This document shows positions 6,001 through 7,590 of a DNA stretch of 64,000 nucleotides, piece by piece. The first letter of the stretch is position 1, and every line of letters begins with the position of its first letter. The position numbers are program-made. The stretch lies in NCBI RefSeq assembly GCF_056746865.1, contig NZ_CM163382.1, one strand, 5' to 3'.

Positions 6001-7590
6001 AAGTGCATATGCTGTCGCGCCACAGCTTTAACGCACTGTTAAAAACCCTTGAAGAGCCGCCGGAGCACGTTAAGTTTCTGCTGGCGACGACCGATCCGCA
6101 GAAATTGCCGGTGACGATTTTGTCGCGCTGTCTGCAATTCCATCTCAAGGCGCTGGATGTCGAGCAAATTCGCCACCAGCTTGAGCACATCCTCAACGAA
6201 GAACATATCGCTCACGAGCCGCGGGCGCTGCAATTGTTGGCACGCGCCGCTGAAGGCAGCCTGCGAGATGCCTTAAGTCTGACCGACCAGGCGATTGCCA
6301 GCGGTGACGGCCAGGTTTCAACTCAGGCGGTCAGTGCGATGCTGGGTACGCTTGACGACGATCAGGCGCTGTCGCTGGTTGAAGCGATGGTCGAGGCCAA
6401 CGGCGAGCGCGTAATGGCGCTGATTAATGAAGCCGCTGCCCGTGGTATCGAGTGGGAAGCGTTGCTGGTGGAAATGCTCGGCCTGTTGCATCGTATTGCG
6501 ATGGTACAACTTTCGCCTGCTGCACTTGGCAACGACATGGCCGCCATCGAGCTGCGGATGCGTGAACTGGCGCGCACCATACCGCCGACGGATATTCAGC
6601 TTTACTATCAGACGCTGTTGATTGGTCGCAAAGAATTACCGTATGCGCCAGACCGCCGTATGGGCGTTGAGATGACGCTGCTTCGCGCGCTGGCGTTCCA
6701 TCCGCGTATGCCGCTGCCTGAGCCAGAAGTGCCACGCCAGTCCTTTGCGCCCGTCGCGCCAACGGCAGTAATCATGCCAACCCAGGTGCCGCCGCAACCG
6801 CAATCAGCGCCGCAGCAGGCACCGACTGTACCGCTCCCGGAAACCACCAGCCAGGTGCTGGCGGCGCGCCAGCAGTTGCAGCGCGTGCAGGGAGCAACCA
6901 AAGCAAAAAAGAGTGAACCGGCAGCCGCTACCCGCGCGCGGCCGGTGAATAACGCTGCGCTGGAAAGACTGGCTTCGGTCACCGATCGCGTTCAGGCGCG
7001 TCCGGTGCCATCGGCGCTGGAAAAAGCGCCAGCCAAAAAAGAAGCGTATCGCTGGAAGGCCACCACTCCAGTGATGCAGCAAAAAGAAGTGGTCGCCACG
7101 CCGAAGGCGCTAAAAAAAGCGCTGGAACATGAAAAAACGCCGGAACTGGCGGCGAAGCTGGCGGCAGAAGCCATTGAGCGCGACCCGTGGGCGGCACAGG
7201 TGAGCCAACTTTCGCTACCAAAACTGGTCGAACAGGTGGCGTTAAATGCCTGGAAAGAGGAGAGCGACAACGCAGTATGTCTGCATTTGCGCTCCTCTCA
7301 GCGGCATTTGAACAACCGCGGTGCACAGCAAAAACTGGCTGAAGCGTTGAGCACGTTAAAAGGTTCAACGGTTGAACTGACTATCGTTGAAGATGATAAT
7401 CCCGCGGTGCGTACGCCGCTGGAATGGCGTCAGGCGATATACGAAGAAAAACTTGCGCAGGCGCGCGAGTCCATTATTGCGGATAATAATATTCAGACCC
7501 TGCGTCGATTCTTCGATGCGGAGCTGGATGAAGAAAGTATCCGCCCCATTTGATCGTAAGCACAGCTTACGTTCGTCATCCTTAACGTGA

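What the first reader, a model, noticed from the sequence alone, without database searches (positions are those of the whole stretch)
6889..6946. dnaX programmed -1 frameshift cassette is intact
Stimulatory internal SD (AGGGAG), slippery A_AAA_AAG in the correct register and a downstream stem-loop are all present, and the -1 frame terminates after one codon (gamma ends ..KKE). This is a textbook feature that single-ORF annotation misses.
Basis: established knowledge. Interest (0 to 1): 0.3.

Follow-up and report, generated by a model that had tools for sequence, protein, structure and literature searches.

The report
Textbook dnaX frameshift site, intact
This is the well-known site in the E. 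coli DNA polymerase III gene dnaX where about half the ribosomes slip back one base and stop early, giving a short (gamma) and a long (tau) protein from one gene; it is present, intact and identical to the laboratory strain K-12, so it is ordinary.

Summary
The window is E. coli chromosome, almost identical to strain 118UI. The ORF at 5622..7553 (+) is dnaX (643 aa, tau).

The cassette has these parts:
- An internal Shine-Dalgarno-like AGGGAG at 6889-6894, followed by a 10-nt spacer.
- The slippery heptamer A_AAA_AAG at 6905-6911. Its first A is the third base of codon 428, which is the correct X_XXY_YYZ register.
- A -1 frame that reads GAG then UGA (6911-6916), giving a 431-aa gamma ending ..KKE.
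- An 11-bp bulged hairpin at 6917-6946.

Supporting evidence:
- Rfam's DnaX frameshift element (RF00382) matches 6886-6950 full length at 96.8 bits (gathering score 35).
- The 106 nt around the site are 100% identical to K-12 MG1655, whose record annotates gamma as a joined CDS ending at the equivalent of 6916.
- The 65-nt element is at least 99% identical in 5372 of 5423 complete E. coli genomes that match it, and RefSeq already labels it "DnaX frameshifting element".
- In 53 dnaX loci from other Enterobacterales the heptamer keeps its register. The hairpin is maintained with compensatory changes in 45 of 46 distinct sequences.

Verdict: real, functional by strong inference, and already known. 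Interest is low.

The parts
5622..7553 (+). dnaX zero-frame ORF, giving tau (643 aa plus stop)
   Evidence: ORF list and translation. It is 100% identical to dnaX of E. coli 118UI and 98.76% identical to K-12 b0470. Pfam finds clamp-loader domains I-III plus tau domains IV and V. The match to PDB tau chain 8gj0_B has E = 0.
5622..6916 (+). gamma coding range: codons 1-430 in frame 0 (5622-6911), then after a -1 slip GAG (6911-6913) and UGA (6914-6916). Base 6911 is read twice.
   Evidence: The simulated slip gives 431 aa ending ..TKAKKE. The K-12 record annotates gamma as a joined CDS over the equivalent range. A 431-residue chain exists in PDB, 8giy_B.
6889..6894 (+). Internal Shine-Dalgarno-like stimulator AGGGAG, 10 nt upstream of the heptamer
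   Evidence: Sequence and pattern search. Its role as the 5' stimulator in E. coli dnaX comes from the literature (PMC5009743). It is invariant across the Enterobacterales loci, but that invariance was imposed by the search pattern.
6905..6911 (+). Slippery heptamer A_AAA_AAG (Lys429 AAA in the P site, Lys430 AAG in the A site)
   Evidence: Register offset 2. The literature identifies A_AAA_AAG as the dnaX shift site (PMC5009743).
6914..6916 (+). UGA stop codon in the -1 frame, one codon after the shift
   Evidence: -1 frame translation ..SKKE*.
6917..6946 (+). 3' stimulatory stem-loop. Basal stem 6917-6922 pairs with 6941-6946. Unpaired A at 6923 and G at 6940. Apical stem 6924-6925 pairs with 6938-6939, and 6926-6928 pairs with 6934-6936. 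Bulged C at 6937. Loop 6929-6933.
   Evidence: MFE fold of -19.1 kcal/mol. The structure equals the Rfam consensus. Compensatory changes occur across Enterobacterales. 45 of 46 distinct homologous sequences fold into the same hairpin.
6886..6950 (+). Full extent of the Rfam RF00382 (DnaX ribosomal frameshifting element) match
   Evidence: 96.8 bits, gathering score 35, E = 5.8e-20, model positions 1-65 of 65. PGAP places a sequence feature at the same coordinates in strain 118UI.

Best explanation
This is the native E. coli dnaX programmed -1 ribosomal frameshift cassette.

Mechanism, taken from published work on an identical sequence:
- A ribosome translating dnaX places the single tRNA-Lys on AAA (P site, codon 429) and on AAG (A site, codon 430).
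- The anti-Shine-Dalgarno end of 16S rRNA pairs with AGGGAG 10 nt upstream.
- The GC-rich hairpin 5-6 nt downstream sits at the mRNA entry channel. Together these two elements impede translocation and A-site tRNA binding.
- Both tRNAs can re-pair one base back on A_AAA_AAG, and tRNA-Lys pairs better with AAA than with AAG.
- About half the ribosomes therefore continue in the -1 frame, add Glu (GAG) and terminate at UGA. This releases gamma (431 aa, clamp-loader domains I-III).
- The rest continue in frame to give tau (643 aa), which also carries the DnaB-binding and Pol III alpha-binding domains IV and V.

Shown here: the presence, register, spacing and foldability of all elements; their identity to K-12; their conservation; and covariation in the hairpin.

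Inferred: that frameshifting occurs at about 50% in this strain. The inference rests on the cis sequence being base-for-base the one studied experimentally.
For: - dnaX identity and domain layout.
- Register of the heptamer and the 431-aa ..KKE product.
- Shine-Dalgarno-like element with a 10-nt spacer, unique in the window (0.00 expected).
- Hairpin of -19.1 kcal/mol with the Rfam consensus fold.
- Rfam RF00382 at 96.8 bits against a gathering score of 35.
- 100% identity over 106 nt to K-12, and no K-12 differences anywhere in 6776-7060 although the gene differs at 24 positions.
- Gamma annotated as a joined CDS in K-12.
- At least 99% identity of the 65-nt element in 5372 of 5423 matching E. 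coli genomes.
- In 53 dnaX loci of other Enterobacterales the heptamer is in the same register, with about 212-216 tau-specific codons downstream.
- Helix covariation: pair 32-61 is AU in 31 sequences and GC in 12, pair 36-57 changes GC to AU once, and pair 42-50 changes GC to AU once. In total 18 cells changed on both sides against 5.5 +/- 1.7 in shuffles. 88% of cells are paired against 29-52% when the partners are slid.
- 45 of 46 sequences fold to the same hairpin.
- Literature: 50% of ribosomes shift and terminate one codon later; the shift site is A_AAA_AAG; there is a 5' Shine-Dalgarno stimulator and a 3' stem-loop (PMC5009743). The hairpin hinders A-site tRNA binding and translocation (PMC7282821).
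Against: Nothing in the sequence argues against it. Four caveats apply.

- No expression data exist for this strain, so frameshift efficiency is inferred, not measured.
- The hairpin's z-score taken alone is modest (-2.33), because the region is GC-rich.
- The comparative set was collected with a pattern that fixed the Shine-Dalgarno-like element, the heptamer and AGUGA. Conservation of those parts in that set is therefore circular. Only the register, the downstream ORF length and the hairpin are independent tests.
- The shuffle control does not correct for phylogeny.
Confidence: 0.98

Rival explanations
1. Gamma is produced by transcriptional slippage of RNA polymerase on the A-run, as in Thermus thermophilus dnaX, rather than by ribosomal slippage. 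The hairpin and the Shine-Dalgarno-like sequence would then be incidental.
For: An A-run is present at 6905-6910. The review PMC5009743 documents this alternative route to gamma in Thermus.
Against: The run here is only six A's. The same review states that bacterial transcriptional slippage operates on runs of about 9 A or T. The heptamer register, the 10-nt Shine-Dalgarno spacing and a hairpin that covaries are features of ribosomal frameshifting, not polymerase slippage. The identical K-12 sequence has been shown to act at the ribosome in purified translation systems (PMC7282821).
Confidence: 0.01
2. The motif is a chance co-occurrence inside a coding region, or the hairpin serves another purpose such as an intrinsic terminator or an RNase site, with no recoding.
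For: The bare heptamer is common, with 13 in the window against 9.4 expected. The composite motif also occurs at unrelated places in other genomes. In about 45 Collinsella loci it is simply the ribosome-binding site and first codons of a sigma-70-like gene.
Against: The composite Shine-Dalgarno-plus-heptamer pattern has 0.00 expected occurrences in the window, and the Rfam match has E = 5.8e-20. No terminator-like site was called on the + strand in 6700-7200, and the hairpin is followed by GUGAAUAAC, not a U-run. The register and hairpin are conserved with compensatory changes across genera. By contrast, a second nearby hairpin at 7044-7080 (z = -4.25) is lost outside Escherichia.
Confidence: 0.005
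3. Gamma arises mainly by proteolytic processing of tau, as in Caulobacter crescentus, and the cassette is vestigial.
For: PMC5009743 reports that Caulobacter gamma derives from cleavage of tau.
Against: The same review states that in E. coli 50% of ribosomes shift and terminate one codon later. The -1 stop codon lies exactly one codon after the heptamer, and the cassette is near-invariant in 5372 of 5423 matching E. coli genomes. That argues for purifying selection on the RNA signals, since the gene as a whole differs from K-12 at 24 sites but none fall in 6776-7060.
Confidence: 0.005

Closest known systems
E. coli K-12 dnaX -1 programmed ribosomal frameshift element (Rfam RF00382)
   Same: Everything tested is the same. 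The sequence is identical over 106 nt. The register, the gamma end point and the hairpin also match.
   Different: Nothing differs in the cassette. The surrounding gene differs from K-12 at 24 nucleotides and 3 residues (I384 vs M, M385 vs T, T578 vs M), all outside 6776-7060.
Enterobacter/Pantoea/Serratia-type dnaX frameshift hairpins
   Same: The Shine-Dalgarno-like element, heptamer and -1 UGA are the same, but all three were fixed by the search pattern. The basal CCGGC/GCCGG stem is also the same and was not fixed by the pattern.
   Different: About half of the sequences use a different apical-stem register: 4 continuous base pairs (columns 41-52 and 42-51) with a 5- or 8-nt loop. E. coli instead has a 3+2 bp apical stem with a bulged C. 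The closing pair is G-C instead of A-U in 12 sequences.
E. coli copA -1 programmed frameshift (CopA(Z))
   Same: It is a -1 shift inside a chromosomal housekeeping gene, followed almost at once by a -1 frame stop, so that a truncated N-terminal product is made. It lies in the same window at 23979..23973 (-) and is listed alongside dnaX in PMC10861913.
   Different: The slippery sequence is C_CCA_AAG, not A_AAA_AAG. Its stimulators were not examined here.
Thermus thermophilus dnaX (transcriptional slippage) and Caulobacter dnaX (proteolysis)
   Same: The outcome is the same: gamma and tau from one gene in about a 1:1 ratio (PMC5009743).
   Different: The mechanisms differ. Thermus uses RNA polymerase slippage on a long A-run, and Caulobacter cleaves tau. 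The window has only A6, plus the ribosomal stimulators.
IS3-family (e.g. IS911) -1 frameshift sites with an upstream Shine-Dalgarno stimulator
   Same: They have an A_AAA_AAG-type heptamer with a 5' Shine-Dalgarno stimulator and a 3' structure (PMC5009743).
   Different: There the frameshift extends the product into an OrfAB fusion rather than truncating it. The 3' structure is a three-way junction, and the genes are mobile-element genes.

Membership tests
DnaX ribosomal frameshifting element (Rfam RF00382; E. coli-type dnaX -1 PRF cassette) | Lies inside a dnaX (DNA polymerase III gamma/tau) coding sequence, about two-thirds of the way along | tested here: met
   The ORF 5622..7553 is 100% identical to annotated dnaX. 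Pfam finds clamp-loader and tau IV/V domains. The site is at codon 428-430 of 643.
DnaX ribosomal frameshifting element (Rfam RF00382; E. coli-type dnaX -1 PRF cassette) | Slippery heptamer A_AAA_AAG in X_XXY_YYZ register relative to the zero frame | tested here: met
   6905-6911, first base at offset 2 from the ATG.
DnaX ribosomal frameshifting element (Rfam RF00382; E. coli-type dnaX -1 PRF cassette) | Internal Shine-Dalgarno-like sequence about 10 nt 5' of the heptamer | tested here: met
   AGGGAG at 6889-6894 with a 10-nt spacer. Pairing with this strain's 16S rRNA was not tested, because no rRNA gene lies in the window.
DnaX ribosomal frameshifting element (Rfam RF00382; E. coli-type dnaX -1 PRF cassette) | Stable stem-loop starting 5-6 nt 3' of the heptamer | tested here: met
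   6917-6946, 11 bp, -19.1 kcal/mol. It matches the Rfam consensus structure. Covariation and a conserved fold are seen in relatives.
DnaX ribosomal frameshifting element (Rfam RF00382; E. coli-type dnaX -1 PRF cassette) | -1 frame stop immediately downstream, so that gamma is 430 zero-frame residues plus Glu | tested here: met
   GAG UGA at 6911-6916. The product is 431 aa ending ..KKE. The end point equals that of the K-12 gamma CDS.
DnaX ribosomal frameshifting element (Rfam RF00382; E. coli-type dnaX -1 PRF cassette) | Covariance-model score above the curated gathering threshold | tested here: met
   96.8 bits against 35, full-length model match.
DnaX ribosomal frameshifting element (Rfam RF00382; E. 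coli-type dnaX -1 PRF cassette) | Roughly 50% of ribosomes actually shift, giving gamma and tau in about a 1:1 ratio | not testable with these tools
   Known for the identical K-12 sequence (PMC5009743). Inferred here from identity.
DnaX ribosomal frameshifting element (Rfam RF00382; E. coli-type dnaX -1 PRF cassette) | Host has a single tRNA-Lys (mnm5s2U34) decoding both AAA and AAG | not tested
   A genome-wide property that cannot be read from a 64-kb window. True for E. coli according to PMC5009743.

The most novel reading that the evidence does not exclude
Nothing about the window's own cassette is novel. The most novel reading left open concerns the comparative set. There the dnaX hairpin exists in two mutually exclusive apical-stem registers. 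The E. coli/Citrobacter type has a 3+2 bp apical stem with a bulged C. The Enterobacter/Pantoea/Serratia type has a continuous 4-bp apical stem with a 5- or 8-nt loop. This could reflect lineage-specific tuning of the tau:gamma ratio rather than neutral drift. One symbiont, Candidatus Pantoea persica, may have lost the 3' stimulator altogether.
Probability: 0.15. Interest if true: 0.2.

Novelty: already known. Interest (0 to 1): 0.06.

Why it matters
This matters only as an annotation point. A gene caller that reports a single dnaX ORF omits the gamma subunit of the clamp loader, so the cassette should be annotated as a ribosomal-slippage CDS, with gamma written as join(5622..6911,6911..6916). 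Biologically it confirms that this strain has the standard tau/gamma arrangement. It raises no new question and makes no open question newly testable.

Tried and rejected
1. I tested whether the heptamer alone is meaningful, and it is not. There are 13 copies in the window against 9.4 expected. Two more lie in dnaX at 7035 and 7113, both out of register and without a Shine-Dalgarno-like sequence.

2. I followed a second strong hairpin directly after the 7035 heptamer (7044-7080, -19.2 kcal/mol, z = -4.25) as a possible second recoding signal. I rejected it. The heptamer is in the wrong register, and both heptamer and hairpin are lost outside Escherichia.

3. I considered the hairpin as an intrinsic terminator. 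No + strand terminator-like site was called in 6700-7200, and no U-run follows the stem.

4. I considered transcriptional slippage. The A-run is only 6 nt, against the roughly 9 nt needed.

5. The genome-wide pattern scan returned many non-dnaX loci. About 45 Collinsella loci proved to be an ordinary ribosome-binding site, a GTG start and the first codons of a sigma-70-like protein. The rest are scattered chance matches. So the motif without context is not diagnostic.

6. I did not inspect the 51 E. coli genomes whose 65-nt element is 95-99% identical. The weakest-ranked match listed differs only within the last 3 nt, outside the stem.

Full report
**What is in the sequence**

Window 5622..7553 (+) is a 643-codon ORF. 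Its translation is DNA polymerase III tau.
- It is 100% identical at the DNA level to dnaX of E. coli 118UI and other strains, and it matches dnaX in 5424 of 5426 complete E. coli genomes.
- It is 98.76% identical to K-12 MG1655 b0470, with 24 nucleotide and 3 amino-acid differences.
- Pfam finds the clamp-loader AAA+ module, lid and domain III at residues 20-358, tau domain IV (DnaB-binding) at 417-498, and tau domain V (alpha-binding) at 500-640.
- The PDB holds both the 643-residue chain and a 431-residue chain of the same protein.
- The window as a whole is collinear with E. coli 118UI NZ_CP032515.1 546927-610926, with four mismatches.

**The cassette**

Read directly from the sequence, the parts are:
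- AGGGAG at 6889-6894.
- A 10-nt spacer CAACCAAAGC at 6895-6904.
- AAAAAAG at 6905-6911.
- AGUGA at 6912-6916.
- A GC-rich inverted repeat at 6917-6946.

The first A of the heptamer is at offset 2 from the ATG. The zero-frame codons are therefore GCA AAA AAG AGU, which is the A_AAA_AAG register required for tandem tRNA slippage.

The -1 frame reads ..S K K E stop, with GAG at 6911-6913 and UGA at 6914-6916. Simulating the slip gives a 431-residue protein ending RVQGATKAKKE.

The region 6912-6950 folds into an 11-bp bulged hairpin of -19.1 kcal/mol (z = -2.33; 3 of 200 shuffles fold as well). The first paired base lies 5 nt after the heptamer.

**More than chance**

- The composite pattern AGGGAG-N8-12-AAAAAAG occurs once in 64 kb against 0.00 expected.
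- Rfam's curated DnaX ribosomal frameshifting element (RF00382) matches 6886-6950 over all 65 model positions. The score is 96.8 bits against a gathering score of 35, E = 5.8e-20, and every consensus pair is formed.
- The heptamer alone is not informative, with 13 copies against 9.4 expected. The two further copies inside dnaX (7035, 7113) are at offset 0 and have no upstream Shine-Dalgarno-like sequence.

**Comparison with the reference and within the species**

The 106 nt around the site are 100% identical to K-12 MG1655 and to 118UI.

None of the 24 differences from K-12 fall between 6776 and 7060.

K-12's curated record lists tau and, as a two-piece joined CDS, gamma. Gamma ends at the position that corresponds to window 6916.

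RefSeq/PGAP records carry one 'gamma/tau' CDS plus a sequence feature 'DnaX frameshifting element' at precisely 6886-6950 in window coordinates.

The 65-nt element is at least 99% identical in 5372 of 5423 E. coli genomes that match it.

**Comparison across genera**

I scanned one genome per species (GTDB) for AGGGAG-N9-11-AAAAAAGAGTGA. The scan returned 120 loci, and 53 of them encode a DnaX homologue. These came from Escherichia albertii, Citrobacter, Enterobacter, Kluyvera, Kosakonia, Pluralibacter, Pseudescherichia, Siccibacter, Phytobacter, Serratia, Pantoea, Erwinia and Mixta.

The pattern fixed the Shine-Dalgarno-like element, the heptamer and the stop codon, so their conservation in this set is circular. 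Three properties remain independent tests:
- **Register.** The heptamer is in the dnaX frame in all 53 loci.
- **Downstream ORF.** About 212-216 tau-specific codons follow wherever the contig allows. The one exception is L099, whose ORF looks interrupted.
- **Hairpin.** See the next paragraphs.

On an alignment of 46 distinct sequences (A2), the E. coli/Rfam structure has 88% of cells paired. This compares with 29-52% when the 3' partners are slid by 1-3 columns. There are 18 cells with changes on both sides against 5.5 +/- 1.7 in shuffles.

Clear compensatory events are:
- the closing pair, which is A-U in 31 sequences and G-C in 12;
- pair 36-57, G-C to A-U in Mixta;
- pair 42-50, G-C to A-U in one Enterobacter.

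The apical stem exists in two mutually exclusive registers, each used by roughly half the sequences. One is a 3+2 bp stem with a bulged C (E. coli, Citrobacter and others). The other is a continuous 4-bp stem with a 5- or 8-nt loop (Enterobacter, Serratia, Pantoea, Erwinia).

Folded individually, 45 of 46 sequences give the same basal hairpin at the same distance from the heptamer. The exception is Candidatus Pantoea persica.

The shuffle control does not correct for shared ancestry, so these numbers support a conserved structure but are not formal proof.

**How it works**

The mechanism is established for the identical K-12 sequence and inferred for this strain.

[quoted passage not shown] It also states that:
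- A_AAA_AAG is the shift site;
- E. coli's sole tRNA-Lys pairs more strongly with AAA than with AAG;
- a 5' Shine-Dalgarno stimulator and a 3' stem-loop enhance the shift.

PMC7282821 shows that the dnaX hairpin slows translocation and hinders A-site tRNA binding when positioned at the mRNA entry channel.

The functional logic is visible in the domain map. Termination at codon 431 removes essentially all of tau domains IV and V. Gamma can therefore build the clamp loader but cannot tether the DnaB helicase or the polymerase core.

**Rivals**

- **Transcriptional slippage (Thermus type).** It needs about 9 A's, and only 6 are present.
- **Intrinsic terminator.** This role is excluded by the absence of a U-run and of any + strand terminator call.
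- **Proteolytic origin of gamma (Caulobacter type).** It would not explain the precisely placed -1 stop or the strong conservation of synonymous positions in the cassette.
- **Chance.** Excluded.

**Controls that came out negative**

A second hairpin directly after the out-of-register heptamer at 7035 (7044-7080, -19.2 kcal/mol, z = -4.25) is retained only in Escherichia. It disappears, along with the heptamer, in other genera. I treat it as fortuitous or genus-specific, not as part of a recoding signal.

About 45 Collinsella loci from the pattern scan carry the same 28-nt motif. There it is the ribosome-binding site, GTG start and first codons (MPKKSE..) of a 448-aa sigma-70-like protein. This shows that the motif needs its context to mean anything.

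**Verdict**

The feature is the textbook dnaX -1 frameshift cassette, base-for-base the K-12 sequence. It is already present in Rfam and flagged by RefSeq annotation. Novelty: already known. Interest: low.

Noticed in passing
window 23979..23973 (- strand), inside copA 21675..24179 (-): There is a second known programmed -1 frameshift site in the same window. The copA slippery heptamer C_CCA_AAG is in register (offset 2), and the -1 frame reads GGC UAA, which would give a 70-aa product ending ..HPKG, the CopA(Z) chaperone. PMC10861913 lists copA next to dnaX as a well-characterized -1 case. The downstream stimulatory structure was not examined.
   Followed up: partly
window 27007-52586 (+): A block of about 25 kb lies between ybaT and cueR. 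It encodes a TolC-family outer-membrane protein (27007-28362), a giant BapA-related adhesin SiiEA (28471-49248, about 6925 aa), a type I secretion permease/ATPase (49252-51414) and a HlyD adaptor (51411-52586), as annotated in the near-identical strain 118UI. From memory, K-12 has ybaT and cueR adjacent, so this looks like a strain-variable adhesin/T1SS island. That was not checked.
   Followed up: no
window 53670-55820: A YadA-like family CDS (53670-54719, -) is followed by about 1.1 kb with no annotated feature in 118UI (54720-55820). Two of the four window-versus-118UI mismatches fall here (54736, 55097). This may be a degraded trimeric autotransporter gene.
   Followed up: no
window 7035-7083 (+), inside dnaX: A second AAAAAAG at 7035-7041 is out of register (offset 0). 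It is followed by a strong predicted hairpin at 7044-7080 (-19.2 kcal/mol, z = -4.25). Both features are kept in E. coli and E. albertii but lost in Citrobacter, Enterobacter and other genera, so they are probably fortuitous. A third AAAAAAG at 7113 is also out of register.
   Followed up: partly
window 14873-14950 (+), 56241-56318 (-), 20627-20710 (+): Rfam matches above gathering score: two naRNA4 (CssrE) hits, which look like REP/BIME-type intergenic repeats, and the sRNA sroB between ybaK and ybaP.
   Followed up: no
alignment A2 columns 39-54 (loci L007-L122): Among Enterobacterales the apical part of the dnaX frameshift hairpin occurs in two mutually exclusive pairing registers. One is bulged-C 3+2 bp. 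The other is continuous 4 bp with a 5- or 8-nt loop. Each is used by about half of the distinct sequences, while the basal CCGGC/GCCGG stem is nearly invariant.
   Followed up: partly
L015:2966-3036 (-), Candidatus Pantoea persica: This symbiont's dnaX keeps AGGGAG, A_AAA_AAG and the -1 UGA but lacks the canonical 3' hairpin, and a different, shifted fold is predicted. It may have a weakened or altered 3' stimulator.
   Followed up: no
L003, L017, L043 and about 40 other Collinsella loci: The exact motif AGGGAG-N10-AAAAAAGAGTGA is conserved across many Collinsella species. There it is the ribosome-binding site, GTG start and first codons (MPKKSE..) of a 448-aa sigma-70-like protein, not a frameshift site.
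   Followed up: yes
L099:7632-7702 (-) and flanks: In this dnaX locus the frame containing the heptamer is open for only 302 codons upstream and 147 downstream, against about 436+215 elsewhere. That suggests an interrupted dnaX or assembly errors.
   Followed up: no
E. coli genome collection: Two of the 5424 dnaX matches are on records labelled as plasmids. In addition, 51 genomes have a 65-nt frameshift element that is only 95-99% identical. Neither group was inspected.
   Followed up: no
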